IMG/VR virus record: IMGVR_UViG_3300021387_000796
Span: 32,001 to 96,000 of that record
Strand: one strand, 5' to 3'
Source: a virus
Taxonomy: Duplodnaviria; Caudoviricetes
Length of the DNA: 64,000 nt
This document shows positions 6,857 through 64,000 of this stretch, piece by piece; position 1 is the stretch's first letter, and the number at the start of each line of letters is the position of its first letter. The translations under genes and the position numbers were made by a program. The notes beneath the pieces were generated by a model. The model had not been told where the DNA came from, did no database searches, and was given only the letters and a program-made list of their open reading frames with translations.

Positions 6857-8068
6857 ATGATTGAAATTAAAGGAAAATATAACAATGCTAAAGTTTTCGT
6901 AGATGATTATGACAAGTTGGAAGAAGCATGTTATAAACAGATTTTGAATTTGTTGAATCAGAAATTTTCAGAAGGTTCACAAATCAGAATTATGGAAGAT
7001 TGTCATGCAGGAAGTGGATGTGTAATTGGTTTTACTCAAACAATTGTTAATAAAATTGTTCCAAATTTGGTTGGAGTAGATATTGGTTGTGGAATGCAAG
7101 TTCTTAAAATATCTAAAGATTTTCATTTTGATTTAAAAAACTTGGATAAAGTATGGCGAGCGAACATTCCTATGGGAATGGCACACAGAAGTACAAAACA
7201 TAAATTCTGCGAAAATATAAATCTCGATAATATTATTACACCAATTAACAAAGAAAAAGAATTACTTGCTCTTGGCTCATTAGGTGGAGGAAATCATTTT
7301 GGCGAATTAGATATCGATAAAGAAGGGAATTATTATCTTGTAATTCATAGCGGTTCTCGACATTTAGGAATTGAAGTTTGTAAATATTGGCAGAATAAAG
7401 CAATTGAATATCATAAAAATCACATCAAGGAAAAAACTGAAATCATTGAACGACTTAAGAGAGAAGGTCGTGAAAAAGAAATTCAGTCTGAACTTGATAA
7501 ACTAGAATTTGAAAAAGTTCCAAATGAACTTGCATATCTTGAAGGTGAAGATTTGAAAGGATATTTACATGATATGGAAATTGCACAAAATTTTGCTTAT
7601 TGGTCAAGAAAGGCTATGCAAGATGAAATTTGTAAAGCATTGAATATTAAGAAGAAACATATTCTTGATGAATTCTGTACAGTTCATAATTATGTAGATA
7701 TTAAAAATAAGATTATTCGTAAAGGTTCTATCTCAGCATACAAAGATGAAATTGCAATTATTCCTATGAACATGGCTGACGGTTCTTTAATTGTAAAAGG
7801 TAAAGGAAACGAAGATAGAAATTGTTCTGCTCCTCATGGTGCAGGTCGTCTTATGTCACGTTCTATGGCTAAAGAATCTCTTAAAATGGAAGATTTCAAG
7901 AAGTCAATGAAAGATGTTTACACAACTTCTGTTTGTGTAGGAACTATAGATGAATCACCTATGGCTTACAAACCTATGGAACAGATTCTTGAAACTATTG
8001 GAGATACTTGTGAAGTTTTGAAAATTATAAAGCCGATTTGGAATGTAAAGGCGAACGATGGAGAATAA
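6857..8068 (+). CDS. rtcB: RtcB family RNA ligase
   Basis: DCHAGSGCVIG, VGVDIGCG, GSLGGGNHF, IHSGSR, HNY, RKG, SAPHGAGR, DESPMAYK. Confidence 0.95.
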   Translation: MIEIKGKYNNAKVFVDDYDKLEEACYKQILNLLNQKFSEGSQIRIMEDCHAGSGCVIGFTQTIVNKIVPNLVGVDIGCGMQVLKISKDFHFDLKNLDKVWRANIPMGMAHRSTKHKFCENINLDNIITPINKEKELLALGSLGGGNHFGELDIDKEGNYYLVIHSGSRHLGIEVCKYWQNKAIEYHKNHIKEKTEIIERLKREGREKEIQSELDKLEFEKVPNELAYLEGEDLKGYLHDMEIAQNFAYWSRKAMQDEICKALNIKKKHILDEFCTVHNYVDIKNKIIRKGSISAYKDEIAIIPMNMADGSLIVKGKGNEDRNCSAPHGAGRLMSRSMAKESLKMEDFKKSMKDVYTTSVCVGTIDESPMAYKPMEQILETIGDTCEVLKIIKPIWNVKANDGE

Positions 8069-10387: not shown

Positions 10388-12241
10388 TTATTTTGTCATT
10401 TCAACTTTAACATCGACCCCGCTCTTATAAATATTAAAATTGAGTAAAATGGTTCTGGAGAATTTTTTTGGTACAATTCCTACTGCAACAATCAATCTTT
10501 CTTGATTTCTTGTTTCGGCGGTATTGTTATCGGAATCACACCATACATAATAATCTTCAAGACGATTAGAATATGTTCCGAGAATTGAATTACAACCACT
10601 TCTTACAACAGAATAAGATGCTTCATCAATCATTTTACCAATTCGACTAGGGAGTACATTCTTTTCAATCTGTTCGATGAGAGTATCAACCAAAGAAGAA
10701 ATTGGAATATTTGACAAATCTGTTTTCTTTACTTGACGAGTTCTCCATCCACCAATCATAGCACCATAGTTGTAATCGTTGATTACCGCATTGAAGTTAA
10801 TATTATCAAGTGTTTCGAGAACATCTTCAGAGGTTGTGTCTTGCGTGAGTTTTACGATACTTGAACCAAGAATACCACCTACGCCGTTCTCATCAATATA
10901 AGCAGGAGCAGAGGTTGTATTTGCTTCATTATCCAAGTAATCTACGATTCTACCAGCAATTAAACCCATGTTAGAACATTTGAAATCGTTACCTTGATAA
11001 ATGTCTTTGTGGATACCCCAATTCAAACAATACTGATACATACCTCTGTTTGCAGTAATACCAAAGTTATAATCATTTGGATTTTCAACAATTGTGTTTC
11101 CATCAACATCAGCAGTACAATAAATAAATCTACAACGTTTCTGATAACTGTTTCTAAGATTTTCAAACTTAGCAATAACTTCAGCATAATTTGTTCCGTC
11201 AACACAGAATTTCAATTGGAACTTATTTGTATCAATTAATTGTTCATAAAGATTTGCAACATCAGCACCATCAACTTCTGTACCACGAGAACCACCACTA
11301 AGATTTACCATAGAATCATCATTCATGAATCCATCTACAATTGAAGTTACAACATGAGCATCAAATAAAGTCTGATTGTCTCCAAAAATATTATTGATGT
11401 AAATATTGTCGCCGTAACTATCTTTTGATGTTTCGGAAAGACCCACAATGAAAGGACTATTGGTTACTTCTGTGTATTCAAGATTGATAGGGTCATAACG
11501 AGCAACTACAATTTCAAAAGCATTTTCGACATCTTCAGATAAAGTTACTTGAACTTGCAAATCATCTTCTTGCATGTTTTTATCGAAAAGAACGAAATAA
11601 GTGTCAGACATATCCATGTCATAACCAATAGAAATCGTAGTTCCTGTAGAAGGTGCTTGTAAGAATGTCAAGTTTAATACACCTGTCTCGGTGTTTAAAG
11701 TACAACCTTCGTCTAAAAGATTGCCATCGTCAGACAAAGTTTCTATATTATCGTTGACACTAATCGATATATCATGTGCCACACCACCTATACTAAGTGT
11801 CAGTGTTTCAGGTTTATATTTTTCAATGTATTTGATTGTATAAGAATATGATAATGTTGTTCCATTTCCAATTCCTACATTATCTATAAAAGCAACGGAA
11901 TTATAGTCCGAAATTTCTTTATTCGATACTCCTTGATTAAAAGGAATTGTACCCATAGACTTTGTTACAAATACTCCACCGTAAGTACCACCTTTGTATG
12001 GACTAGCGACATACATTGTACATTTCTGTACAACATCAAGAGCATCTTGAATTGTTGGATAATCTTTTGAAGGATAACCAAATGTATTCAAAATACCTTG
12101 TGTATCACCTTTGTTAAATTTAGTAAAAGTTTTTGGTCCTTTAGGTGAAACGATTGCTATAGCACCAACAGTAGGTGTACTCACATTTGCTTTTTCTGTA
12201 TTATCTTGTTCAACTGTTTGTAATCTCCAAGATTGAGCCAT
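10388..12241 (-). CDS. Contractile tail sheath protein
   Basis: N-terminal GAIAIVSPKGP...FGYP; LSGGSRG; C-terminal YYVWCDSDNNTAETRNQERLIVAVGIVP, typical of sheath proteins. Confidence 0.9.
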   Translation of the reverse strand: MAQSWRLQTVEQDNTEKANVSTPTVGAIAIVSPKGPKTFTKFNKGDTQGILNTFGYPSKDYPTIQDALDVVQKCTMYVASPYKGGTYGGVFVTKSMGTIPFNQGVSNKEISDYNSVAFIDNVGIGNGTTLSYSYTIKYIEKYKPETLTLSIGGVAHDISISVNDNIETLSDDGNLLDEGCTLNTETGVLNLTFLQAPSTGTTISIGYDMDMSDTYFVLFDKNMQEDDLQVQVTLSEDVENAFEIVVARYDPINLEYTEVTNSPFIVGLSETSKDSYGDNIYINNIFGDNQTLFDAHVVTSIVDGFMNDDSMVNLSGGSRGTEVDGADVANLYEQLIDTNKFQLKFCVDGTNYAEVIAKFENLRNSYQKRCRFIYCTADVDGNTIVENPNDYNFGITANRGMYQYCLNWGIHKDIYQGNDFKCSNMGLIAGRIVDYLDNEANTTSAPAYIDENGVGGILGSSIVKLTQDTTSEDVLETLDNINFNAVINDYNYGAMIGGWRTRQVKKTDLSNIPISSLVDTLIEQIEKNVLPSRIGKMIDEASYSVVRSGCNSILGTYSNRLEDYYVWCDSDNNTAETRNQERLIVAVGIVPKKFSRTILLNFNIYKSGVDVKVEMTK

Positions 12242-42017: not shown

Positions 42018-44345
42018 TTAAAAACGATTTTGTTTTTTACAAAATTCGAAAATTTCTTCTTTGGAAAATTCAACATTTTCTTTTGTTAAATTTTCTATGA
42101 TTTTATCATAGATTTCTTCATTTGTGAATTTTGGACAATGCCATTCTTTTTTAAATTCAGCACATCTTTGCTTGAATAAAGATTCAATTTTTTTAGCAAG
42201 TTCCATTCCTTTATCAGTGCATTGGTCAGTTCCAATTAAAATCTGCAAAGTTTCAGCAAGACCTATCTGACCGATAGCCAAAGTTCCATGTTTCAATGCT
42301 GAACGAATGCCTTCATTTTCGTTATATCCATAGAATGTTCTGTTTTCATACATAAATGAAGCCGATTTAGGATTTTGAGAACAGATATAATTAAATCGTT
42401 CAATCAATTCATCTTTACAATCAGTTATAGCATCATCAAGATTTTTCATAAACAATTCAATTAATTTATCTTCATTAACTTCGTCTTTCATCTTCTTTTT
42501 TGATTCCATAGCAATTGTAGGCAAAACAATTGTAGCAGGTGCGATGTTTCCACGACCATCTTTGAGATGAGATAATTCTTCCGATTCGGCATTTATATCT
42601 GTACTACTATAAGTACGACAATTATGAGAAACAATTCCGCTTAAATCAAACATATCTGTTTCAGTAGTGAAATCATAAGTATTGCATTTTTCATCAGTTA
42701 CTTTTACTGAAATAATTTTATATCCATATCCGCTGACAGAATCATAAATTACATCACCTACTTTCAAATCAGTAGCAATAATTCTACCACGAGCGGTATG
42801 CAAAGGATGGTCTTCTGTGATATGAAGAATTTGATTTTCACCATTTTTATCAAATATAACTTCGTACAATTTTAATGGTGAAGATTCATCATTAAATTCG
42901 ATATTCAAAATATCAACCCATTTATTCTGACATTTAATCTGACAATTTTTTACTTGTTTATACTTTGTATATCCGATTTTATTAGATTTGTTGTTAATCC
43001 ATTCGATATTGGAAGTATAAGAATCTATTGTCTCAATTGCTTTTTTAATTGAAATGTTATTAAATTCCACACCGTTAATTTTGATTGATACAAATTCATC
43101 ACCACGAACTGCACCCATCGTACTAGGATAAGTTCTTGGGTCATCTTTATTATAACCTTGGTCGTTACTCCAATCACAGTTTACATAATTAGGATAAAGA
43201 CGTTTAGAAGTACACTCAATTGCTAACTTAAACAAATCATAATTAGGGTCATTTTCTTTAGCATTTACGCCATCCATTAATTGAAAAATTTGGCAAGGAA
43301 ATATCGAGGTGGCGTGATTACCAACACCATCAATAGTGCATTTCAAAATTTCTTTGATTAATAAGCGACCTTCTTCTAATGTACAAGTTCCGTAGTTTAT
43401 AGACGAAAACGGCAACTGGTTACCTGACCTGCTCTGCAATGAGTTTAAGTTGTGTAACAATCCTTCCACAGACTGATGAATTTCCTTTTTAATCATTTCA
43501 TAAGCATAATTTTGTACTTTTTTATTTTTATAAATTTTTCTATCTAATATTGAAATTGTTTCCACATTAGATAAAGTAATTGGTTTTTTATTTTTAATAA
43601 ATTTCAATCCTTCATTGTAATGCTTAAAAAATGATTTTCTAATATAAGGAATCATACTCCAATCAATATGCGTTACTGCAACACCACCAAACTGTTGTAA
43701 TGATTGCAATTGAATTGCAACGGCGACAAGTTGCATAGCGGTGGATAAACTATTCGCAGGTCTGATAAATACTTGTCTAGTTTTCATACCATTTTTAAGC
43801 AAATCGTCAATGGGTAGCGACAAGCAATTATGCATCCCTACAAAATATGAATCCAAATCGTGAATATAGATTCTATTATTATTATGATTTTTTGCAAACT
43901 TTGGAGAAATCAAATAATTTAATGCAAGTTCTTTCATTAAAACCGAATCGGCTTCACCTTTTCTTCCACCAAATGAAAATTCGTCTACATTTGCGTTCTG
44001 ATTTACTACATTTGTTGCATTTAATTTTTCAAAGATTTTTTTAGTGATATCAAGATTCTTAAATCTTTCAAGTTCACGACTTTTTCTATAATCGATGTAT
44101 GATTTTGCCACATCTTTATTTTCTTTCTTCAAATATTTTTCTACAAGGTCATGAATATCATCAACTTCAATTTCTTCTTTTCCTTCACTTTCGAGAGAAG
44201 ATTTTACAAAAGAAACTGTATTTTTAAGTTGTTCATCCGTAATTTTATTATCAGTTTTCATATTGTCGGATGCGAGTTTGATGGCATCCACAATTTTTGA
44301 TTCATTAAAATTTACTAATCTGCCGTCTCTTTTTCTTACTTTCAT
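42018..44345 (-). CDS. nrdD: NrdD N-terminal polypeptide (ATP cone + catalytic barrel), intein-containing
   Basis: VRKRDG ATP cone, QNANVD, IYIHDLD, HNC, RSGNQLPFSSINYG, IFPC, MG[intein]CRT, GRGN. Confidence 0.92.
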   Translation of the reverse strand: MKVRKRDGRLVNFNESKIVDAIKLASDNMKTDNKITDEQLKNTVSFVKSSLESEGKEEIEVDDIHDLVEKYLKKENKDVAKSYIDYRKSRELERFKNLDITKKIFEKLNATNVVNQNANVDEFSFGGRKGEADSVLMKELALNYLISPKFAKNHNNNRIYIHDLDSYFVGMHNCLSLPIDDLLKNGMKTRQVFIRPANSLSTAMQLVAVAIQLQSLQQFGGVAVTHIDWSMIPYIRKSFFKHYNEGLKFIKNKKPITLSNVETISILDRKIYKNKKVQNYAYEMIKKEIHQSVEGLLHNLNSLQSRSGNQLPFSSINYGTCTLEEGRLLIKEILKCTIDGVGNHATSIFPCQIFQLMDGVNAKENDPNYDLFKLAIECTSKRLYPNYVNCDWSNDQGYNKDDPRTYPSTMGAVRGDEFVSIKINGVEFNNISIKKAIETIDSYTSNIEWINNKSNKIGYTKYKQVKNCQIKCQNKWVDILNIEFNDESSPLKLYEVIFDKNGENQILHITEDHPLHTARGRIIATDLKVGDVIYDSVSGYGYKIISVKVTDEKCNTYDFTTETDMFDLSGIVSHNCRTYSSTDINAESEELSHLKDGRGNIAPATIVLPTIAMESKKKMKDEVNEDKLIELFMKNLDDAITDCKDELIERFNYICSQNPKSASFMYENRTFYGYNENEGIRSALKHGTLAIGQIGLAETLQILIGTDQCTDKGMELAKKIESLFKQRCAEFKKEWHCPKFTNEEIYDKIIENLTKENVEFSKEEIFEFCKKQNRF
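42621..43112 (-). mobile_element. Mini-intein (164 aa) at the MG/CR active-site Cys, beginning with Ala
   Basis: STMG|AVRGDEFV...HITEDHPL (block B TxxH)...TYDFTT...IVSHN|CRT; no endonuclease domain. Confidence 0.88.
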
Positions 44346-47490: not shown

Positions 47491-48171
47491 ATGATATACG
47501 GCTACATTCGAGTTTCTACAGAGGAACAAAATCTTGAAAATCAAAAGAAGGCTATTTTAGAACGATATAAAGTTCGAAAATGGATTGAAGAAAAGAAAAG
47601 TGGAACAATTGATTATCATAAACGAAATTTAGGTAATTTGATAAATCAATTGAAAGAAAATGATGTTTTGGTCGTTACTGAAATTTCAAGATTAGGTCGA
47701 AGTCTGAATATGATATTCAATATAATATCAGAATTAAAAAATAAAGGTGTTAGAGTAATAGCAATTAAAAATAATTTTGATTTGAATCCACAAAAGAAAA
47801 ACGATATAACATCTCAAGTCTTGATGTTTGCCTTTGGTTTATCAGCACAAATTGAGCGAGATTTAATTTCTGAAAGAACAAAACAAGGTTTAGCAGTAGC
47901 AAAATCTAAAGGTAAAAGAATAGGAAGACAAGTTGGTGAAAAAATATATAATGTAAAATTAAGAAGGTATGAAAAACAAATAATGCGAGATTATAAAAAT
48001 AATAAAAGTATAAATTCTATAGCGACAAAATACAATGTGAATTGGATAACGGTAAAAAGATTCATTGATGTATATTCAAAGATGGAAAAACCTGCTCCAC
48101 TTACAGAAAAACCAAAGAAACATGGACATCCTACATATGCTGAATTAGAATACTTTAGGACACATCCATAA
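47491..48171 (+). CDS. Serine recombinase (resolvase/invertase, Mpi-like)
   Basis: MIYGYIRVST..Q..ENQ, EISRLGRS, FAFGLSAQIERDLISERTK, C-terminal HTH; consensus promoter TTGACA-N17-TATAAT at 47434-47462. Confidence 0.9.
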   Translation: MIYGYIRVSTEEQNLENQKKAILERYKVRKWIEEKKSGTIDYHKRNLGNLINQLKENDVLVVTEISRLGRSLNMIFNIISELKNKGVRVIAIKNNFDLNPQKKNDITSQVLMFAFGLSAQIERDLISERTKQGLAVAKSKGKRIGRQVGEKIYNVKLRRYEKQIMRDYKNNKSINSIATKYNVNWITVKRFIDVYSKMEKPAPLTEKPKKHGHPTYAELEYFRTHP

Positions 48172-55436: not shown

Positions 55437-56909
55437 ATGGCAAAATGTGATTGGTTTTATTATATTCATCCTTCAATTTGGAATGAAATGAAATTTCATT
55501 TATATCGTGGAATGAATTTGGTTTATAATGGTGAATTACCACAGTATGTGATTGATTTTTGTAATAAAACCGATGTTAATTTGATTCCTTTTTCAGAAAA
55601 GGATATTTATAATTATGAAGAAAGATTTTATAAATTAAAAAAAGAATGGTTACATGACGATGTTGAAAACAACAATTATTCTTTTGAAGTAAATCTCGAT
55701 GATTTATGGAATGAAAGTTGGGATGATATTATAGATGAAAAAACATTATATATCGAATGTAATGTCGATAATATTTGTACAACTTTGTATAACATGAGAG
55801 AATACAAATTTCGTTCTATTCAAAGAGGATGGCTTGAATTAGGTTATAAAATTATCCCTTTGTTTTGGAAAGAATTCATCCCATCACTCAATGAAAGTCA
55901 AATACATTTGGTTGAAAAATTTGATAATATTGCGTTGGCATCAGCATTTGATGTAGATAAATTCGTATGTAGAATTTCTTTATTTCCGAATTCTGTAGAT
56001 GAAATTACGGAAAGAAAATATATACACATTACATCTTCAGATGGTGGAAGACCATTACCATATTATCGTAGGTATTTTTTAAACGACAAACTTAATAAAA
56101 AATGGGGTGATGATTTAGCAACAAACGCTTTCTTGGGGGTAAATACTTCAAAATTGTGTGTAGTTTCACATCCTTCTAATTATATTCCACAATCAGAAAA
56201 AATTTTTTATGATAGAAGTGATAATTGGAAAGGTAGTGGTATGGATAAAGATAGTGAGGATTATATTTTAGAAAAGGCTGATTATATCACATGTTCTTCT
56301 AAGTGGTTGTATAACGATACCTTGAAATATCTTAAAGAAAATAGACCGAACGATGATGTAAAAGTTAAATATATTCCTAATGGTAATGTCATGTTTGATT
56401 ACCCTACTAATGTAGAAAAATTTGAAAAGCCTACGGCTATTTATGTTGGTGCTAGAATAAAGAAAACGGATTTACAATTAATTTATTTGCTTTGTGAAAT
56501 GAATCCTAATTGGAATTTTATGCTTTATGGTGAAGGTGCTAGTGATTTACTTTCAATACCGAGCAATTTATTTGTTCATGAAACTGTTCCAATTGAAGAA
56601 TTGTTTCCGATTATCTGCAAATGTCATGTTGGTCTTATAACATTAAAAGAAAATGAATGGACTGTTGGAATGTTACCTAACAAAGTATTCAATTACATTA
56701 ATGCAAGAATTCCTATTATTTATAGTGGTATCCCTGATATTAACATGGAAGATTATAAAGAATTTTCATATAACATTTCGGACATTTCATCTCTTGATGA
56801 AGTTCTCGAAAATAAGACTACTGCTGAAACATTTGATTCTTATAAAAGAGATTGGTCTACAGTTTGTGATGAAATCATTTCTTGTATAGATGAATTGGAG
56901 AATAATTAA
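55437..56909 (+). CDS. GT-B glycosyltransferase (GT4/TuaH-like C-terminal part)
   Basis: FYDRSDNW, ADYITCSS..L, YIPNG, IYVG, CHVGLI, PNKVFNYINARIPII. Confidence 0.75.
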   Translation: MAKCDWFYYIHPSIWNEMKFHLYRGMNLVYNGELPQYVIDFCNKTDVNLIPFSEKDIYNYEERFYKLKKEWLHDDVENNNYSFEVNLDDLWNESWDDIIDEKTLYIECNVDNICTTLYNMREYKFRSIQRGWLELGYKIIPLFWKEFIPSLNESQIHLVEKFDNIALASAFDVDKFVCRISLFPNSVDEITERKYIHITSSDGGRPLPYYRRYFLNDKLNKKWGDDLATNAFLGVNTSKLCVVSHPSNYIPQSEKIFYDRSDNWKGSGMDKDSEDYILEKADYITCSSKWLYNDTLKYLKENRPNDDVKVKYIPNGNVMFDYPTNVEKFEKPTAIYVGARIKKTDLQLIYLLCEMNPNWNFMLYGEGASDLLSIPSNLFVHETVPIEELFPIICKCHVGLITLKENEWTVGMLPNKVFNYINARIPIIYSGIPDINMEDYKEFSYNISDISSLDEVLENKTTAETFDSYKRDWSTVCDEIISCIDELENN

Positions 56910-57928
56910 TGGGTTTTGTGGATAATATGAATGAACAAAAAATCCCATTCATTGGAGATAAATACAAATATGTTTATACTGGAACAGAATTGAATATCAA
57001 TCGCATTCGTCTCGCTTGGCACATAACAGATTGGTGTAACTATTCTTGTCCGTATTGTATTCAAAGTGTGAATCATCATTATGCTAAAGAACCTAAAGAA
57101 ACTCAAGAATATGTCGAATCTATGGCAAAATTATTAAGACCTAAGTTACACAAACAGAAAGTAACATTGACGCTTTACGGGGGAGAAATATCCACATATT
57201 ATAATCTGAGAAGAATTGTTGAAATTTTATTCAAAGATAATGAATCGGATGCCACAGTAACGTTACTTACTAATTTGTCCGCACCTCTTGAAAAATATAA
57301 AGATTTTATGAATTGTTCTGATAAAAACTTACACATTCGTATTATACCATCTTATCAATGGTCAAATGTTGATGAATTTATAAATAAATGCGTTTTTATA
57401 CGAAAATTTTTAGGAAATGCATTTCAATGTTCATGTGTTGTATTTGATAAGACGACTCTTGAACATCTCAAAGAGGTTGCTGAAAAATTTAGAAAAGCAA
57501 ATATCCCAATTCGTTTTACTCATGGAAGAATGCCAAAAAGTAATAACACATTTTATACTTTACAAGAAGGGGTATCTGATTTTATAATTAATTGGAATAA
57601 AAATGTATTTGAAAAAATAACATGTCATATTACTTATGCTGATGGTACAGAAAAGCCGTGTTTTGCTCGCTCTGATATACTTAAAGAAGTTGCTGATTAC
57701 CAAGGATTTAATGGTGCTTATTTTAAGGATATGATGTGTTTTACAGGACTTAATTTGACACCAAACGGTAATCTCCGTGCAGGAAGTTGTCCTGATAGAA
57801 GTAAATTATATATTGCTAACATTTTTGAAGATAAAGATTTTACATTGAAACCTTATAAGTCGAAATGTGAAGGAAAGGGTTTTTGTAACCTTTGTAATTC
57901 AATTTTAATTTGGAATGGGAAATATTAA
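56909..57928 (+). CDS. Radical SAM protein 1
   Basis: CNYSCPYC, GGE, TNLS, C-terminal Cys cluster. Confidence 0.9.
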   Translation: MGFVDNMNEQKIPFIGDKYKYVYTGTELNINRIRLAWHITDWCNYSCPYCIQSVNHHYAKEPKETQEYVESMAKLLRPKLHKQKVTLTLYGGEISTYYNLRRIVEILFKDNESDATVTLLTNLSAPLEKYKDFMNCSDKNLHIRIIPSYQWSNVDEFINKCVFIRKFLGNAFQCSCVVFDKTTLEHLKEVAEKFRKANIPIRFTHGRMPKSNNTFYTLQEGVSDFIINWNKNVFEKITCHITYADGTEKPCFARSDILKEVADYQGFNGAYFKDMMCFTGLNLTPNGNLRAGSCPDRSKLYIANIFEDKDFTLKPYKSKCEGKGFCNLCNSILIWNGKY

Positions 57929-58817
57929 TATGCAAATCAAATGGAGATTGTTCAATAATTGTAATTTTCACTGTTCGTATTGTTGTAATAGTGTAATGAA
58001 TAAAGTTCAAAATCCTATTAATTTCGATAGACTTTTACGCATCGCTAAATCTATTCACAATTTGATTGAAAAAGATGAAGATGATGTTTTTGAAGTGAAT
58101 TTGATTGGTGGTGAAATAACTATGTTGCCACTTGAACAAATGAAAGAAATCATTAATACTATTTATTCAAAGAAAATTACTAAATTCCATATTACAAGTA
58201 ATATGTCTGCCAAAGTTGATTATTACATAGCAATAAATGAATTGTGTAATAAATTGAATGTTACATTAAAAATCGTAGGCTCGTTTCATGAAGAGATGAT
58301 GAATTATGATGTTTTTATAAAAAAGGCTAGGATGTTATCTGATAATTTGAAATTATTTATTGCCGAATTTGTGGTTACATCTGAAAATAAAGAAATTTAT
58401 GAAAAAATACAAGAGGATTGTAAAAAATATAATATTGCTTTGATGGTGGATTATAATAGAAAAGAAAAATGGGAAACGAATGATATTGATTATGATAATC
58501 GTAGTATTAAAAATTATCTTCGTATAATATTGAATCCTCAAGGATGCATTTGTAGTAATTCAAAATATATGATAAATGTTTTACCGCATGGCGAAGTTTA
58601 TGGTACAGTTTGTCATAACAGAAAACTTTTAGGTATGATTAACATGATAAAATCATTTCCACATGAAGAATTTATTTGTAAACAAAAAATATGTTCTTTT
58701 TGTGGTAAAATTGAAATAAAAACCCCTCAACAAGAAATTCTTTACTCTAATATAAATAATATCATTGTAAATGAAGATTTGATTAAAAAGCATAATGAGG
58801 AAATAAATGTTATATAA
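57915..58817 (+). CDS. Radical SAM protein 2
   Basis: CNFHCSYC, GGE, TSNMS, SFH, C-terminal Cys cluster. Confidence 0.9.
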   Translation: MGNINMQIKWRLFNNCNFHCSYCCNSVMNKVQNPINFDRLLRIAKSIHNLIEKDEDDVFEVNLIGGEITMLPLEQMKEIINTIYSKKITKFHITSNMSAKVDYYIAINELCNKLNVTLKIVGSFHEEMMNYDVFIKKARMLSDNLKLFIAEFVVTSENKEIYEKIQEDCKKYNIALMVDYNRKEKWETNDIDYDNRSIKNYLRIILNPQGCICSNSKYMINVLPHGEVYGTVCHNRKLLGMINMIKSFPHEEFICKQKICSFCGKIEIKTPQQEILYSNINNIIVNEDLIKKHNEEINVI

Positions 58818-59769
58818 ATATGTTCATCCTAGTAGTAACCCACAAATTAATTGTTGGTATATTGATTGGCACATAACAGATTGGTGTAACTATTCTTGTC
58901 CGTATTGTATTCAGACGATAGACCATCATTATGCGAGTCAACCATATGAATCACAAGAATTGGTTGAAAAATATGCAAAATGTATTCGAGAAAAAATTAA
59001 AGGTAGATATATTCATTTGTCATTACATGGTGGAGAAATATCGCAATATGATTTGTTATCCGTTTGTGAAATACTTTTTAAAAATAATAATGTTGTTGGA
59101 ACAGTAAATCTTACAACTAATTTATCAGCACCAATCGAAAAATATATTTCTTTTTGTGAACAAAATTATGGTGATAAAATTAAATTCAAAATAGTGTCAA
59201 GTTATCATTGGACAGATTTGCAAAAATATATTGATAAAGCAAAAATTCTCGCTAAAAATTATAAATCGTTTATGGTTGTTTCAGTAGTTCATGATAAAAT
59301 AACATTAGAACAGATGAAAGTCGTGGCTGAAACTTTTAAGGAAAATAAAATTCCATTTAAATTTACACACGGAAGAATACCAAACGCAAACGGAAAACTT
59401 TATAAAATATCGGACGAATGTTTGGAATATCTTGAAAAAATTAATTCCGAATTTAAAATCGATAATGCTAAATTGATTTATAGCGATGGTACAACGAAAG
59501 TATTTAAAAGTAGGAGTAATTTGTTAAATCAAGTAGCAACTGATTTGAATTTAGATGGTGCTAATTTCAAAGGAATGTATTGTTTTAGCGGTACAATAAT
59601 ATATCCTAGCGGAAAAGTATATTGTGGTAGTTGCCCTGATAGAAAGAAGATGTATAAAGGTTTGATTACTGACGAAAATGTATCTTTATCTCCTACCAAA
59701 GAAATTTGTGGTGGTAAAGGTTTTTGTAATCTTTGCGATTGTATGTTAATTTGGAGTGGCAAATATTGA
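58807..59769 (+). CDS. Radical SAM protein 3 (paralog of protein 1)
   Basis: CNYSCPYC, GGE, TTNLS, GSCPD...C..KGFCNLC. Confidence 0.9.
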   Translation: MLYKYVHPSSNPQINCWYIDWHITDWCNYSCPYCIQTIDHHYASQPYESQELVEKYAKCIREKIKGRYIHLSLHGGEISQYDLLSVCEILFKNNNVVGTVNLTTNLSAPIEKYISFCEQNYGDKIKFKIVSSYHWTDLQKYIDKAKILAKNYKSFMVVSVVHDKITLEQMKVVAETFKENKIPFKFTHGRIPNANGKLYKISDECLEYLEKINSEFKIDNAKLIYSDGTTKVFKSRSNLLNQVATDLNLDGANFKGMYCFSGTIIYPSGKVYCGSCPDRKKMYKGLITDENVSLSPTKEICGGKGFCNLCDCMLIWSGKY

Positions 59770-60404
59770 TTGTCTTTACAGTAAACCCCTATAACGATGA
59801 TGTTATAAACAGTCCTATACCACAATTCTGTATGAACAGTTGGAAAAAATTAGGATATGAAATTAAAGTATTTGATTATAACAGTGAAGAAGTAAAATAC
59901 GTCAAAGCGGACTGTCATGAACATTTTCAAGGTAAATCAATTTCAATTAAAACAGACGCTATAAGAATGTATATTCTTTCACAATACTCTAATCATTTGT
60001 ATCTTGATTGGGATGTTTATGTTCATAAACCTTTTGAATTAAAAGAAAAATTGATACGACCGTATTTTTGGTCTATTTATAATGCTGACGAATTAAATTA
60101 TTTTAAGGTATTGTATGAACGGTATAAATTAGGATTATTAAAAGATATGTATGACGCAGAAGTGTCTAAAATATTGAATATAAAGGATAATGGTGCTATT
60201 AATGAATTGAATCATCTTTATTCTGCTGATAGACCTTATTATTTGTTTTCGAACAATCAAGACACCGCTACAAAATATGCTCATTCTAAAGTATGTGTAA
60301 TTAATAATGGCGAAAATATTTTACGCAATGCTATAAATATTAAAGGTGATAAAGAATTGTTTGATTTTCTATCATCGTTAAAAAGGATACATGTATATGA
60401 ATAA
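59766..60404 (+). CDS. DxD glycosyltransferase-like protein (GT32/capsule-synthesis-like)
   Basis: CMNSWKK..YEI...KTDAIRMYIL...LYLDWDV; probable TTG start overlapping the upstream stop. Confidence 0.7.
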   Translation: MIVFTVNPYNDDVINSPIPQFCMNSWKKLGYEIKVFDYNSEEVKYVKADCHEHFQGKSISIKTDAIRMYILSQYSNHLYLDWDVYVHKPFELKEKLIRPYFWSIYNADELNYFKVLYERYKLGLLKDMYDAEVSKILNIKDNGAINELNHLYSADRPYYLFSNNQDTATKYAHSKVCVINNGENILRNAINIKGDKELFDFLSSLKRIHVYE

Positions 60405-61512
60405 TACACAATTAATTTCGATGAATGATATTATGGCGATTGAACGACCATATGATAAAAGACCAATATTCAAAATCTCTTGGAAAATGACAGATTTTTG
60501 TCCTTATAGTTGTTCATATTGTTATATGGCTAATGCCGTAGAAAAAGCAAAGAAATGTCAAAATAATCCTACACAGTTTGATGTGGAAGAAATATCAAGC
60601 CGTATTGATGAATTGTTTGAATGTTTAGGAAATAAAAAAGATAGTATTCAGTTACATTTGATTGGTGGAGAACCGTCTATATTTAATCTGATTAAAGTTA
60701 TTGATAAAATCAAAACGCCTAATCTTAAATATTTGAATCTTGCGACAAATCTTTATCGAAATGTGGATTATTATAAAGAATTAAAAAGGTACTGTAACTC
60801 TCGTGGAATCGAATATGGTTCGTCTGCATCATTTCATATAACACAATGTAATCCACAAGAATATGTTGATAAAGTATTGGAGTTAGGCGTTCAGACAAAA
60901 ATAGTTGTCAATAATGAAAACTTAAAATTATATAAGCCTTATCTCGAAATGTTTATGAATAATAATATTTCAATTGAATTAACTGTAGAAAGAAACAGTA
61001 AAAATGAATGTGTGCAATTAACTGATGATAATTTGGATTTTGTTCAAAAAGTAAGAGAATATCAATTCAATCGTAAAATGCAACACAAATCGTATTTACC
61101 ATATTATACAGTTACATTAAGAAATGGTCAGAAGATAAATTACAGTTCAAACATCGCAATGATTAATTCAATCAAAGAAGGTGCGTTGGATACGACTGGA
61201 TTTTACTGTACCGCAGGTCTACACAATGTACGCATTGAAAAAAATGGAAATCTTAAAAGAAGTGCTTGCCGATTGTGTTCTATGTATTTTAAAATGGGTA
61301 ATATTCTAAAAGGCGATTATGAAAAACCAAATGGGGAAATAATCTGTAAGTGTGAAGAAAAAGGTAAAGATGGTATCTTGCAAGAAAAATATTGCACGGC
61401 ATTCAACAATACATCGATGTACAGATTGGGATATAATAGAATTAATGGTATTTATAATGAAAATCATGGAATAAAAATACCAAACTATTGGGAAGAAACC
61501 TACGGACAATAA
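60391..61512 (+). CDS. Radical SAM protein 4
   Basis: CPYSCSYC, GGEPS, ATNL, SASFH, C-terminal Cys cluster. Confidence 0.9.
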   Translation: MYMNNTQLISMNDIMAIERPYDKRPIFKISWKMTDFCPYSCSYCYMANAVEKAKKCQNNPTQFDVEEISSRIDELFECLGNKKDSIQLHLIGGEPSIFNLIKVIDKIKTPNLKYLNLATNLYRNVDYYKELKRYCNSRGIEYGSSASFHITQCNPQEYVDKVLELGVQTKIVVNNENLKLYKPYLEMFMNNNISIELTVERNSKNECVQLTDDNLDFVQKVREYQFNRKMQHKSYLPYYTVTLRNGQKINYSSNIAMINSIKEGALDTTGFYCTAGLHNVRIEKNGNLKRSACRLCSMYFKMGNILKGDYEKPNGEIICKCEEKGKDGILQEKYCTAFNNTSMYRLGYNRINGIYNENHGIKIPNYWEETYGQ

Positions 61513-61720
61513 AAAAAAACAATTTGTTTTCCTTGACATTCTTTTAAATTTAATGTATTATAATGTATATTAAATTTATATGAGGTATTTAATGGTATTG
61601 GCTAATTATATTTTTGATGCAATCTGTGGAATTTTAATTGTCGGAATTCTAGGATTGGTTATTGTCGGTGAATTTTTTCTTATAAAAGAAACTTGGAAAA
61701 AATAAAAAGAGGGGTAAAAA

Positions 61721-63427
61721 TTGAAAGAACTTAGATTGATTGAAGGTTGTATTAAATTTCCAAAAGAATTACCTTATATTGATGAGTATTATACTAACTC
61801 TAACAAATTGAATCTTTCTTATAGAGCGATAAAATGGTTGTTTATGTGGTCAACGTTGGCTGATAAATACAAGAAAGATAAAGTTTATCAGAAAAACTTT
61901 TATACTTCTCTGAAAACCGAACTCAATAAAGAACAGAGAAATTTCAAATTTCCAATTGATTTTGAAAATACACTTAATGAAATGTATCTCATCAAGCAGA
62001 AATACGCAGAAGAAAAGAAAGAGTATAACAAAGAACATCGTAAAGAGATTGCAGAAGAAAATAAAAAATGGAAAGAAGAATACGGCTATGCTTTTGTGGA
62101 TGGTGAAAAGGTAGAAATCGGAAACAGTCTTATCGAAAGTAGTCGTATATTTATTGGTCGTGGAGATTGTTCTTGGAGAGGATTCATTGTAGAAGATGTT
62201 ATGGCTGAAGACATTTCAATCAATTCCTCTTATCCTTTCCCTTGTAATTATCCTACTCATAATTGGAAAGAAGTGTCATTTAAGGATACGATGTCCATTG
62301 CTACATACACAGAACATCTCGTGGGAAATAAAGATGTTACAATTCAAAAGGCTATTTGGTTTTCTAATAAATCATCATTCAAGGCTGATTCTGATGAAGA
62401 AAAATTTGAAAATGCTAGATTGTTGCAAGTAAACATTAAAAAAGTTACTAAAGCAATCAAAGACGCTTTTCTATCTAATGATATTAAAACACGACAGATT
62501 GGTTGTTGTGCCTATATTATAAGTAAATTTGGAATCCGTGCAGGTAACGAAGATAAACGCAACAACGGTGTGGTCGGTGCATCCACTCTTAAAGTAGAAA
62601 ATATTGAATTGTATGTTGACAAACTACAAGTGCATTTGAAGTTTTTGGGTAAAGATTCAATGATGTATGATAATACTCTAAAAGTTGATGCTGATGTTTT
62701 ACTTCCATTGTGGAAATGTATGGACGGTAAGAACTGTAAGGAAAAACTTTTTGATAGAATCACAAGTCATGAAGTAAATGAATTCTTGGGTTCAATTTGC
62801 AAAGATATTCCTCACTTGTCAAACAAGACATTTCGTACATTTTTTGGCACAAGTTTACTTGCAGAAGAAATTCAAAAAAGAGATTGGGATAATTTGACAG
62901 ATAAACAGTTCAAGAATCAATACATGGATTGTGCCAAAGTTGTAACAATTAAACTTAATCACAAGAAAACTCTTACAAAAGAGCAGAATGAAAAGATTAA
63001 TGAATCTACAAAGAAGAAAATCAAATCAGCAAAAGATTCATTTGAAAAGACAAAATCATCTGTAGAAAAGAAATTGAGTAAACTTGAAGGACTTGAATCA
63101 GATTACAAATCTTGTCTTGAGGGAAAGATTCTTAAAAATAAACTTGCAGAAATCAAGGAACAGAAAAACCAACTTAAAGAAAAGTTGAATAATGCTGAAC
63201 AGAAATTTAAAGATACAAAGAAATTAGCAAAGGCTAATTCTGAAAATCGAGAAATTGCCTTGACAACTGCCATGACTAATTACTCTTCACCAAGAGTAGC
63301 GTATTCACTTTGTAAAGAAACAAACCATGAACCTACAACAATCTATTCTAAAGCATTAGTTGAAAGATTTAATGTATGGGCAAGTGATACACCTACTGAT
63401 TATTGGAGAAAGTATCCAAATGTATAA
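61721..63427 (+). CDS. DNA topoisomerase IB, long (eukaryote/Thaumarchaeota-like) form
   Basis: Catalytic pentad RAGNE, GKDS, FRT, NH, NYSSPR; N-terminal core (KNF...EYGYAFVDG...IFIGRG...EDISIN...HNWKEV) and coiled-coil linker. Confidence 0.9.
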   Translation: MKELRLIEGCIKFPKELPYIDEYYTNSNKLNLSYRAIKWLFMWSTLADKYKKDKVYQKNFYTSLKTELNKEQRNFKFPIDFENTLNEMYLIKQKYAEEKKEYNKEHRKEIAEENKKWKEEYGYAFVDGEKVEIGNSLIESSRIFIGRGDCSWRGFIVEDVMAEDISINSSYPFPCNYPTHNWKEVSFKDTMSIATYTEHLVGNKDVTIQKAIWFSNKSSFKADSDEEKFENARLLQVNIKKVTKAIKDAFLSNDIKTRQIGCCAYIISKFGIRAGNEDKRNNGVVGASTLKVENIELYVDKLQVHLKFLGKDSMMYDNTLKVDADVLLPLWKCMDGKNCKEKLFDRITSHEVNEFLGSICKDIPHLSNKTFRTFFGTSLLAEEIQKRDWDNLTDKQFKNQYMDCAKVVTIKLNHKKTLTKEQNEKINESTKKKIKSAKDSFEKTKSSVEKKLSKLEGLESDYKSCLEGKILKNKLAEIKEQKNQLKEKLNNAEQKFKDTKKLAKANSENREIALTTAMTNYSSPRVAYSLCKETNHEPTTIYSKALVERFNVWASDTPTDYWRKYPNV

Positions 63428-63637
63428 ATATGTGGTGATGTGTTTTAATGAAACGAATAAAGCGTTTCATTTTTTAGTAGAATCGGCTGATGGATATTGT
63501 GCTGAAATAGAAGTCAGAAAAAGATTTCCGAATTATAAAATAAGTCAAGTTATCAGACTTGAAGAACTGAAATAATTATCTGAACATATACACAAAATAT
63601 ATTCAGATAAAAAATATAAAATTTGGAGGAATAAAAT

Positions 63638-64000
63638 ATGATTAAATTAAGAATTGGAAAAGAAGAAGTTGTTTATTCGGATGACGATTTGTTGGTAATG
63701 ACAAGAGACCAACTTAAACAGTTGAAACAAGATTTACAGTGTAATATGGAAGAAGTTTCTGCTAAAAGAGCAAGATATCAAGCAGAAAACAACGAAAAGT
63801 ATAATTCAAAAGAATACTTTACACAGATTGCCAAGTATAAAACCGTTATGGCAAATCTTAAACGAGCAATTGCTAAAGTAAATACTTATGAAATCGATGT
63901 TAAAGAAAATGATTTGAAAGACCGAGAACATTGGCTATGGTCATTTTATGTTAATGTAAAACATAATATTGACAAAAATGAATTTGAAAAACTTGTGAAT
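63638..64000 (+). CDS. Hypothetical coiled-coil protein, runs off the window end
   Basis: GGAGG RBS, open frame to base 64000. Confidence 0.55.
   Translation, partial: MIKLRIGKEEVVYSDDDLLVMTRDQLKQLKQDLQCNMEEVSAKRARYQAENNEKYNSKEYFTQIAKYKTVMANLKRAIAKVNTYEIDVKENDLKDREHWLWSFYVNVKHNIDKNEFEKLVN

What the first reader, a model, noticed from the sequence alone, without database searches (positions are those of the whole stretch)
61721..63427. Eukaryote/Thaumarchaeota-type long topoisomerase IB in a bacteriophage
Seen: 568 aa with all five catalytic residues, the N-terminal cap/core region (EYGYAFVDGEKVEIGNSLIE...FIGRG...EDISIN...HNWKEV, cf. human [29 protein letters not shown]...EDIIIN...HKWKEV) and a long coiled-coil linker before the NY..PR tyrosine. 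Established: typical bacterial and poxviral TopIB are short and lack these parts; the long form is characteristic of eukaryotes and some archaea. Here it sits behind a bacterial TTGACA promoter and SD with phage-like composition. Inference: inter-domain transfer or a deep viral lineage relevant to TopIB origins; the Asn before the catalytic Tyr suggests testing camptothecin sensitivity.
Basis: partly seen in the sequence, partly recalled or inferred. Interest (0 to 1): 0.8.

Follow-up and report, generated by a model that had tools for sequence, protein, structure and literature searches.

The report
Eukaryote-type topoisomerase IB in jumbo phage
A 218-kb tailed phage from animal guts carries an intact, full-length "eukaryote-type" DNA-relaxing enzyme (topoisomerase IB); it belongs to a large phage-only branch of that family that I could not find described, which bears on where the eukaryotic enzyme came from.

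Summary
Window 61721-63427 (+) is an intact 568-aa long-form type IB topoisomerase. It has the Topoisom_I_N cap, the catalytic core, a two-helix linker and the Topo_C_assoc domain, with pentad R273/K311/R372/H414/Y521. An AlphaFold model (pLDDT 91.6) overlays whole human TOP1 at TM 0.82.

The contig is not chimeric. Contigs from other studies bridge both gene junctions, and an unrelated 109-kb scaffold keeps at least 14 kb of synteny. dN/dS is 0.11.

The genome is an IMG/VR virus record of 218 kb with a tail sheath, a T4-like baseplate wedge, GroEL and DnaB. No type IA or IIA topoisomerase was detected. A bacterial host is likely but not shown.

In trees the protein sits in a deep clade known only from metagenomes and viral contigs (100/100). 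The contexts I checked are jumbo or huge phages. With a second phage clade it forms a third lineage beside eukaryotes+NCLDV and archaea+bacteria, nested in neither. The root is unresolved.

The long form also occurs in many archaeal phyla and in bacteria. Asn before the catalytic Tyr does not predict camptothecin sensitivity.

The known jumbo-phage TopIB (PaBG type) lacks the cap. I found no paper describing this clade. The scan has flagged a similar gene in one other phage genome.

The parts
61533..61561 (+). Sigma-70-like promoter element (TTGACA, 17 nt, TATTAT, overlapping TATAAT) upstream of the TopIB gene
   Evidence: An 11/12 consensus match. The element is kept almost unchanged in relative L025 while the rest of the leader has diverged. 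Function is not shown: overall promoter-like counts in this AT-rich region equal the shuffled expectation.
61707..61714 (+). Shine-Dalgarno sequence AAGAGGGG, 6 nt before the TTG start
   Evidence: Read from the sequence. The start position is conserved in relatives: TTG in L025, ATG in L002.
61721..63427 (+). Long-form DNA topoisomerase IB gene (568 aa, P0001)
   Evidence: Three Pfam domains over cut-off. Human TOP1 E 1e-49 over residues 17-558. AF2 pLDDT 91.6. Foldseek 1k4t_A TM 0.82/0.83. dN/dS 0.106 against an 86%-identical relative.
61793..62329 (+). Cap (Topoisom_I_N; core subdomains I-II), residues 25-203
   Evidence: PF02919 at 2.2e-25. It aligns with the human cap including the FxGRG (F144, G146, R147) and HxWKEV motifs.
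62372..63058 (+). Catalytic core (Topoisom_I), residues 218-446, with R273 (62537-62539), K311 (62651-62653), R372 (62834-62836) and H414 (62960-62962)
   Evidence: PF01028 at 4.5e-47. Codons checked. Invariant in 105 sequences.
62978..63244 (+). Linker: two long helices (420-465 and 468-508), antiparallel as in the human linker
   Evidence: DSSP on the AF2 model. Whole-chain superposition on human TOP1 70 kDa. 106 residues lie between H414 and Y521, within the range of other long forms.
63200..63403 (+). C-terminal domain (Topo_C_assoc), residues 494-561, with the active-site Tyr521 (63281-63283) preceded by Asn520
   Evidence: PF14370 at 3e-13. The codon is TAC. It aligns to human N722-Y723.
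63447..63471 (+). Terminator-like hairpin followed by a T-run, 20 nt after the stop codon
   Evidence: Pattern scan only. It overlaps a small downstream ORF, so its function is uncertain.

Best explanation
The gene encodes an active long-form (TOP1-like) type IB topoisomerase of a tailed jumbo phage from animal-gut communities. By homology it should work as follows. The cap and catalytic modules clamp duplex DNA. Tyr521 nicks one strand and forms a 3'-phosphotyrosyl link, assisted by R273, K311, R372 and H414. The DNA swivels under control of the clamp and linker, and the nick is resealed. Both positive and negative supercoils are relaxed without ATP or Mg2+. Shown here: the architecture, the catalytic residues, the fold, purifying selection, the phage genome context and the contiguity of the contig. 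Also shown: the gene belongs to a large, deep, metagenome-only clade whose examined contexts are jumbo or huge phages. Inferred: its role is that of the phage's own swivelase for replication and transcription of a 218-kb genome. That inference rests on two facts. The record holds no detectable type IA or IIA topoisomerase, and the gene sits in a same-strand DNA and nucleotide-metabolism region (ThyX and ClpP downstream, NrdD, helicases and SbcCD nearby). Evolutionarily, the phage enzymes are a third primary lineage of long TopIB beside eukaryotes+NCLDV and archaea+bacteria. They are not a recent capture from either.
For: Domains and residues. Fold: AF2 pLDDT 91.6 and pTM 0.78; the top Foldseek hit is human TOP1 1k4t_A, TM 0.82/0.83 over 584 columns. 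Selection: dN/dS 0.106 overall and 0.07-0.2 per domain against L025. Phage context: tail sheath, NrdD, Dda-like helicase, SbcC-like and homing endonucleases in the window; T4-like baseplate wedge (8.6e-41), GroEL and DnaB-like helicase elsewhere; IMG/VR virus record with CheckV completeness 92%; 5 tRNAs. Contiguity: contigs from other studies span 58884-64000, 60681-62305 and 60327-62892; the ENA 109-kb scaffold L025 is colinear over at least 14 kb. No PF00521, PF00204 or PF01131 match in the record. Clade: 42-row clade A 100/100, clade B 98/90, A+B 97/91 (99/93 in the 51-row set), Euk+NCLDV 100/100, archaea+bacteria side 95/92 to 100/98. The AU test rejects phages+Thaumarchaeota as one clade, p 1.5e-9. 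Contexts of other clade members are phage-like: dUTPase, PDDEXK, bS21; NrdD, clamp loader; LigA, RNase H. In two close relatives a homing-endonuclease ORF splits the gene.
Against: No biochemical or expression data were obtained. Terminase, portal and major capsid genes were not identified in the searches run. The host is unknown: no Amidase_2 or Phage_lysozyme domain was found, and the phage GroEL is equidistant (41-44%) from many bacterial phyla. The record is 92% complete, so a second topoisomerase could be missing or too diverged to detect. The swivelase role is inference; a packaged or anti-defence role is not excluded. Both phage clades are AT-rich, so composition may inflate their union.
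Confidence: 0.8

Rival explanations
1. A recent inter-domain capture: the phage picked up the gene lately from a gut eukaryote (ciliate, fungus), an NCLDV or an archaeon.
For: The architecture is identical to TOP1. The habitat holds eukaryotes and archaea.
Against: Best identity to any archaeal or eukaryotic-type sequence is about 29-33%. The gene sits in a 42-row clade with internal identities down to about 32%, which indicates long evolution inside phages. Eukaryotes+NCLDV (100/100) and every archaeal or bacterial group exclude the phage sequences. GC and codon make-up equal the genome's. An ANCIENT transfer in either direction cannot be excluded, because the root is unresolved.
Confidence: 0.05
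2. The enzyme is a virion-packaged or injected protein, as in poxviruses, acting on the incoming genome or on early transcription rather than as a replication swivelase.
For: Vaccinia packages its TopIB (established knowledge; cited in PMC4824112). Earlier notes of this scan describe short TopIB domains fused to portal or head proteins in huge phages (not checked here).
Against: Here the gene stands alone, with no head-protein fusion. It lies among DNA and nucleotide-metabolism genes behind a sigma-70-like promoter, not in the structural module at about 176-215 kb of the record.
Confidence: 0.12
3. The virus infects an archaeon (for example a low-GC gut methanogen), so this is an archaeal-virus gene and not a bacteriophage gene.
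For: The host is not shown. Long TopIB is common in archaea. No peptidoglycan hydrolase domain was found in two searches.
Against: The record holds bacterial-type genes: group I chaperonin GroEL, whose nearest named homologues are all bacterial, a DnaB-like helicase and ClpP just downstream. It has a T4-like baseplate wedge. A -35/-10 promoter element is conserved. Clade relatives carry NAD-dependent LigA and ribosomal protein bS21.
Confidence: 0.08
4. An assembly chimera or contamination: a cellular TOP1 gene misjoined into a phage contig.
For: None beyond the prior surprise.
Against: Contigs from four other runs (different studies) cover the region and bridge both junctions. An independent 108,937-bp scaffold has the same gene order, from radical-SAM x4 through TopIB to ThyX and ClpP. 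IMG/VR relatives L002 and L003 keep the downstream genes.
Confidence: 0.01

Closest known systems
Human nuclear TOP1 (PDB 1K4T, 1A36)
   Same: Same four-part architecture (cap, catalytic core, coiled-coil linker, C-terminal Tyr domain), same pentad, and the camptothecin-contact equivalents R147, D312 and N520. The whole chain superposes at TM 0.82, rmsd 3.5 A.
   Different: About 27% identity. There is no long disordered N-terminal extension: about 12 residues precede the cap against more than 200 in human. It branches outside the eukaryote+NCLDV clade.
Thaumarchaeal/aigarchaeal TopIB (Caldiarchaeum CsTOP1, PDB 6Z01; PMC4824112, PMC8748870)
   Same: A prokaryote-sized long form (about 540-570 aa) without the eukaryotic N-terminal tail. 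E 2.6e-46.
   Different: A separate clade. The AU test rejects phages+Thaumarchaeota as one group, p 1.5e-9. The CsTOP1 linker is about 57 aa (PMC8748870) against about 89 aa here. CsTOP1 is camptothecin-resistant, so sensitivity cannot be read from conserved residues.
NCLDV TOP1 (Dasosvirus, Marseillevirus LCMAC; GVMAG contigs L009-L018)
   Same: Virus-encoded full-length TOP1 fold (BFVD TM 0.72-0.76).
   Different: The NCLDV proteins nest inside the eukaryote-like clade (100/100). They carry N-terminal extensions of about 120-160 aa and a short His-Tyr spacing of about 67. The phage proteins do not share these features.
Phage-specific topoisomerase I of jumbo phages PaBG, Lu11, phiRSL1 and Motura (Iyer et al. 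2021, PMC7824862)
   Same: A jumbo-phage-encoded TopIB of about 560 aa with the tyrosine-recombinase-fold catalytic domain.
   Different: The PaBG protein matches only Pfam Topoisom_I (res 309-485, 5e-15). It has no Topoisom_I_N and no Topo_C_assoc. BLASTP against P0001 gives E 0.05. Foldseek gives TM 0.42 at 12% identity. tblastn of P0001 found nothing in 50,697 GenBank phage records.
Short poxvirus/bacterial TopIB (vaccinia, variola, Deinococcus; PDB 1A41, 2H7G, 2F4Q)
   Same: Shared catalytic core and chemistry.
   Different: Only residues 256-363 align (E about 1e-5), and TM is 0.24-0.32. These enzymes have a different small N-terminal domain and no linker. Short Chloroflexota TopIBs sit on a branch of 3.6 changes per column (1.82 on each side of the root) from all long forms.
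Heterodimeric TopIB of kinetoplastids (Leishmania, PDB 2B9S)
   Same: Relevant to relatives, not to the window gene. In a complete 300,878-bp phage the enzyme is encoded as two separate ORFs far apart. In L002 and L003 it is split by an endonuclease ORF.
   Different: The split points differ: after about residue 297 or about 363 here, whereas in kinetoplastids the cut lies between the core and the Tyr domain. The window gene itself is unsplit.

Membership tests
Type IB topoisomerase, long (TOP1) form | Catalytic pentad Arg-Lys-Arg-His-Tyr | tested here: met
   R273, K311, R372, H414 and Y521 align to human R488, K532, R590, H632 and Y723. They are invariant in 25 and in 105 sequences. Codons verified.
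Type IB topoisomerase, long (TOP1) form | Eukaryote-type cap (Topoisom_I_N, core subdomains I-II) | tested here: met
   PF02919 at 89.9 bits against a cut-off of 25. The cap superposes on human TOP1 in the whole-chain match.
Type IB topoisomerase, long (TOP1) form | Coiled-coil linker between the catalytic His and the Tyr domain | tested here: met
   Helices 420-465 and 468-508, with pLDDT mostly above 88. 106 residues lie between H414 and Y521.
Type IB topoisomerase, long (TOP1) form | C-terminal Topo_C_assoc domain carrying the Tyr | tested here: met
   PF14370 at 49.9 bits against a cut-off of 25.1.
Type IB topoisomerase, long (TOP1) form | Mg2+- and ATP-independent relaxation of positive and negative supercoils through a 3'-phosphotyrosyl intermediate | not testable with these tools
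   Needs the purified protein.
Eukaryotic TOP1 clade or thaumarchaeal TopIB clade (phylogenetic membership) | Branches inside that clade | tested here: not met
   Eukaryotes+NCLDV 100/100 and Thaumarchaeota 100/99 both exclude it. It lies in phage clade A, 100/100.
Short poxvirus/bacterial TopIB | Small N-terminal domain (Top1B_N_bact or pox type), about 310-350 aa, no linker | tested here: not met
   No such Pfam hit. Only the core aligns.
PaBG-type phage-specific TopIB (PMC7824862) | Sequence relationship beyond the shared catalytic core | tested here: not met
   BLASTP E 0.05. PaBG lacks PF02919 and PF14370.
Tailed phage (Caudoviricetes) genome | Tail and baseplate genes | tested here: met
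   Tail sheath phrog_23 at 1.7e-13. Baseplate wedge phrog_219 at 8.6e-41, with distant T4-like tblastn hits.
Tailed phage (Caudoviricetes) genome | Terminase, portal and HK97-fold capsid | tested here: inconclusive
   Not found among the 30 large ORFs scanned. Most ORFs have no family.
Bacteriophage in the strict sense | Bacterial host | tested here: inconclusive
   Bacterial-type GroEL, DnaB and ClpP and a conserved sigma-70-like promoter favour it. No host link or endolysin was found.

The most novel reading that the evidence does not exclude
The phage long-form TopIBs (clades A and B) are an ancient viral lineage that is the sister, or the source, of eukaryotic TOP1. This would parallel the proposed viral origin of eukaryotic type IIA topoisomerases. 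In the unrooted trees the phage lineage and the eukaryote+NCLDV lineage leave the archaeal/bacterial part at the same internode, next to Thaumarchaeota. If the root lies among archaea, the phages and eukaryotes are sister groups.
Probability: 0.15. Interest if true: 0.85.

Novelty: new member of a known kind. Interest (0 to 1): 0.6.

Why it matters
Long-form TopIB has been treated as a eukaryotic signature protein shared only with Thaumarchaeota (PMC2621148, PMC4824112) and has been used in arguments about the archaeal ancestry of eukaryotes.

This finding adds a large, deep, phage-restricted lineage of the complete enzyme. The lineage is abundant in animal-gut metagenomes: one 90%-identity cluster has 416 member sequences and another 556.

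That adds a third party to the debate over TOP1 origins, and any rooted TOP1 phylogeny would need to include it. It also shows a replication strategy that differs from T4-like phages: an ATP-independent swivelase in place of a type II enzyme.

The compact, tail-less enzymes (about 565 aa) and their naturally split variants could serve as models for TOP1 clamp and linker mechanics and for inhibitor studies.

Tried and rejected
- The only PHROGs hit of P0001 was a tape-measure family (3e-08). I read it as a low-complexity, coiled-coil match of the linker.
No GTDB genome was therefore searched specifically for clade A, and no host clue came from prophages.
- An Rfam scan of the insert in L002 found no group I intron at E<=0.1. 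Intron versus free-standing endonuclease stays open.
- The listing of cluster members gave no organism names for any clade A or B cluster.
- The AU test on the 104-row set did not finish. It was rerun on 51 rows.
- A second AU constraint (eukaryotes+Thaumarchaeota held together) was rejected. That result is uninformative, because the constraint mainly breaks the strong archaeal grouping.
- Rooting with five short Chloroflexota TopIBs gave an unresolved four-way base on a very long outgroup branch. No root is claimed.
- Endolysin searches (PF01510, PF00959) found nothing.
- The GroEL search gave no host signal.
- The tail sheath has no tblastn match in GenBank phages.
Nothing can be said on expression.
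- NCLDV capsid PF04451 rang in none of three IMG/VR records and in no control, so that search is uninformative.
- A 37-codon ORF between the promoter and TopIB is not conserved in L025 and is probably not a gene.
Full report
**1. Observation**

The frame at window 61721-63427 (+) is open for 568 codons from a TTG start. An AAGAGGGG Shine-Dalgarno sequence lies 6 nt upstream.

Pfam finds all three domains of eukaryotic TOP1 above the curated cut-offs:
- Topoisom_I_N, res 25-203, 2.2e-25
- Topoisom_I, res 218-446, 4.5e-47
- Topo_C_assoc, res 494-561, 3e-13

phmmer against PDB aligns residues 17-558 end to end with human TOP1 (E about 1e-49) and matches Caldiarchaeum TOP1 6z01 at 2.6e-46. The short variola and vaccinia enzymes match only residues 256-363 (E about 1e-5).

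The pentad is R273, K311, R372, H414 and Y521, with codons checked in the DNA. All five are invariant in 25 close and 105 diverse long TopIBs.

An AlphaFold2 model built on 25 relatives has mean pLDDT 91.6 and pTM 0.78. It shows two long helices, 420-465 and 468-508, as the linker. Foldseek puts human TOP1 70 kDa (1k4t_A) first, with TM 0.82/0.83 and rmsd 3.5 A over 584 columns. The whole clamp is therefore reproduced, not only the catalytic core. Short pox and bacterial enzymes reach TM 0.24-0.32.

**2. Is the gene real, and is it part of this genome?**

Gene GC is 0.31 against 0.30 for the window.

Logan contigs from four runs of other studies (sheep gut, bioreactor, gut, bovine gut) cover the region. 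Single contigs span 58884-64000, 60681-62305 and 60327-62892, so both junctions are bridged.

An unrelated ENA scaffold of 108,937 bp (L025; TopIB 86% identical) has the same gene order across at least 14 kb: two ORFs, four radical-SAM ORFs with one interspersed ORF, TopIB, two small ORFs, ThyX, ClpP.

dN/dS between the two TopIB genes is 0.106, and 0.07-0.20 in each domain.

The -35/-10 element at 61533-61561 is retained in L025, although the leader between it and the start codon has diverged. That includes loss of a 37-codon ORF seen in the window.

A chimera or a decaying gene is excluded.

**3. What genome is it?**

The window is bases 32001-96000 of an IMG/VR virus record of 218,066 bp. 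The record is linear, with CheckV completeness 92%, 29% GC and five tRNAs.

PHROGs and Pfam identify these genes:
- a tail sheath and a T4 gp6-like baseplate wedge (8.6e-41)
- GroEL
- DnaB-like and Dda-like helicases
- NrdD
- SbcC-like and Metallophos proteins
- RtcB
- a serine recombinase
- many homing endonucleases

The baseplate wedge has only distant (22-26%) T4-like relatives among 50,697 GenBank phages. The sheath has none. This is a contractile-tailed jumbo phage with no cultured relatives.

No terminase, portal or capsid family was recognised among the ORFs I scanned. No peptidoglycan hydrolase was found.

The phage GroEL has about 50 metagenomic relatives. It is then 41-44% identical to GroELs of many bacterial phyla. 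It is bacterial in type but gives no host clue.

A bacterial host is therefore probable but unproven. The evidence for it is:
- GroEL, DnaB and ClpP in the record
- the conserved sigma-70-like element
- LigA and bS21 in clade relatives

**4. Topoisomerase complement**

Pfam models for GyrA/ParC/gp52 (PF00521), GyrB (PF00204) and type IA (PF01131) find nothing in the record, although they ring in 12-14 of the 14 control genomes. The long TopIB is the only detectable topoisomerase.

Together with its place in a same-strand DNA-metabolism block, this is the basis for inferring a replication and transcription swivelase role.

**5. Relatives**

The 5.8-billion-protein search returns about 30 full-length relatives, from 94% down to 32% identity. 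All have the three domains, and all come from ENA, Logan or JGI metagenome assemblies. The exhaustive representative search gives 1324 hits. None of the clade's clusters carries an NCBI or UniRef organism name.

Contexts of three deeper members are phage-like:
- contigs of 442, 110 and 72 kb
- mostly family-less small ORFs
- among them dUTPase, PDDEXK nuclease, helicase, bS21, NrdD, clamp loader, LigA and RNase H

IMG/VR holds 23 loci. Two records of a second phage group carry a T4-like baseplate wedge.

tblastn of P0001 against all GenBank phage records finds nothing.

**6. Phylogeny**

Labelled references came from three sources:
- a Thermoproteota scan, in which 122 of 301 genomes carry the cap domain. 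The top group is ammonia-oxidising Thaumarchaeota, since 4 of 5 genomes hold archaeal AmoA.
- GVMAG giant-virus contigs

A careful IQ-TREE run (LG+C20 PMSF, 104 rows x 538 columns) gives these supports, as ultrafast bootstrap / SH-aLRT:

| Grouping | Support |
|---|---|
| Phage clade A (42 rows, with the query) | 100/100 |
| Phage clade B (7 rows) | 98/90 |
| A+B on one side of a branch | 97/91 |
| Eukaryote-like + NCLDV | 100/100 |
| Thaumarchaeota | 100/99 |
| Long bacterial forms (sister to Heimdallarchaeota) | 100/100 |
| Archaeal/bacterial side separated from phages+eukaryotes | 91/77 to 100/98 |

A 51-row subset gives A+B 99/93 and the archaeal/bacterial side 95/92. The AU test rejects joining the phages with Thaumarchaeota (p 1.5e-9).

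With three monophyletic groups the unrooted topology is fixed. Whether phages are sister to eukaryotes depends entirely on the root. Rooting with short Chloroflexota TopIBs left a four-way unresolved base.

The safe statement is this. Phage long TopIBs are one or two deep lineages, nested in no sampled cellular or NCLDV group. They join the tree at the same internode as eukaryotes, next to Thaumarchaeota.

Compositional bias could inflate the A+B union, because both phage clades are AT-rich.

**7. Comparison with what is known**

Papers I could search state that among prokaryotes the long form is confined to Thaumarchaeota or the 'BAT' archaea (PMC2621148, PMC4824112, PMC8748870). Later papers mention Asgard. 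None describes it in tailed phages.

Iyer et al. 2021 (PMC7824862) report a 'phage-specific version of topoisomerase I' in jumbo phages PaBG, Lu11, phiRSL1 and Motura. I fetched the PaBG protein (562 aa) and compared it:
- It matches only the catalytic-core model (res 309-485, 5e-15) and has no cap or C-terminal domain match.
- BLASTP against P0001 gives E 0.05.
- Foldseek gives TM 0.42 at 12% identity.

TopIB in jumbo phages is thus known. The complete eukaryote-type enzyme in phages appears not to be.

Earlier notes of this scan flagged one more phage genome with a long form, and a bacterial KSB1/Anaerolineae clade next to Asgard. My tree reproduces the bacterial clade next to Heimdallarchaeota.

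**8. Camptothecin**

The contact residues are conserved: R147 = R364, D312 = D533, N520 = N722, T516 = T718.

CsTOP1, in which the key DNA-binding residues and the catalytic tyrosine align with the human enzyme, is nonetheless resistant. Sensitivity was partly restored only by swapping in the human linker and C-terminal domains (PMC4824112, PMC8748870).

Within phage clade A the residue before the Tyr is N, S or A.

The test is worth doing, but the Asn is not a prediction.

**9. Verdict**

The enzyme is an ordinary TOP1 in its architecture and in its presumed mechanism. What is new is its carrier and its phylogenetic position: a large phage-specific lineage that is independent of the eukaryotic and archaeal clades.

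I class it as a new member of a known kind, with fairly high evolutionary interest.

Noticed in passing
L002 10001-12786 (IMG/VR 160-kb contig; L003 shows the same): In the 77%-identical relatives the TopIB gene is interrupted after about residue 363, just before catalytic R372, by a 314-aa GIY-YIG-type endonuclease ORF (11178-12122). The N piece (397 aa) and the C piece (262 aa) are separate ORFs. No Rfam intron was found, so this is either a split gene with a free-standing homing endonuclease or an unrecognised intron.
   Followed up: partly
G008 (record of L021; 300,878 bp, direct terminal repeats, CheckV 100%): 42871-43101 and 291042-291470 (L156): A trans-split TopIB. One 305-aa ORF carries the cap plus Pfam core positions 9-84. 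A separate 267-aa ORF carries core positions 85-226. The two lie about 53 kb (or 248 kb) apart, which recalls the heterodimeric kinetoplastid enzyme. N-part-only ORFs also occur in L020 and L022-L024.
   Followed up: partly
window 55437-61512 (+): Immediately upstream of TopIB lies a tight cluster of four paralogous radical-SAM ORFs (56909-57928, 57915-58817, 58807-59769, 60391-61512). It also holds a 223-aa and a 490-aa ORF of unknown family. The cluster is conserved at 86-96% aa identity in L025, in most genes above TopIB's own 86-87%. Its function is unknown.
   Followed up: no
L076, L079-L081, L083, L086, L088, L089, L096, L100-L102, L107, L111 (GTDB genomes): Full-length long TopIB is present in many bacterial MAGs (Chloroflexota/Anaerolineae, KSB1 and others). 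They form one clade (100/100) that is sister to Heimdallarchaeota. This contradicts the textbook 'eukaryotes plus some archaea' distribution.
   Followed up: partly
L015, L019 (IMG/VR records of 156 kb 'provirus' and 58 kb): Two viral-contig TopIBs of about 510-525 aa form a long-branched pair (100/100) that attaches inside the archaeal part of the tree, not with the phage clades. They may come from archaeal viruses or proviruses.
   Followed up: no
window 61592-61705 (+): A 37-codon hydrophobic ORF with its own GAGG ribosome-binding site lies between the promoter-like element and TopIB. It is not conserved in the 83%-nt-identical relative L025, so it is probably not a gene.
   Followed up: yes
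whole record G000 (218,066 bp): No type IIA (PF00521, PF00204) or type IA (PF01131) topoisomerase was detected. That is unusual for a phage with a T4-like baseplate, since such phages usually encode topo II.
   Followed up: yes
window 1827-3158, 6857-8068, 47491-48171, 42018-44345: Other annotated genes in the window are a PAPS-reductase/DUF3440 protein, an RtcB RNA ligase, a serine recombinase (Resolvase), and an NrdD that matches its PHROG in two stretches. An earlier first-reader note says the NrdD is split by an endonuclease; I did not check that.
   Followed up: no
L114 21482-21698 (442-kb contig carrying clade-A TopIB P0029): A ribosomal protein bS21 gene lies 10 kb from the TopIB gene on a 442-kb phage-like contig. 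The contig is probably from a huge phage.
   Followed up: no
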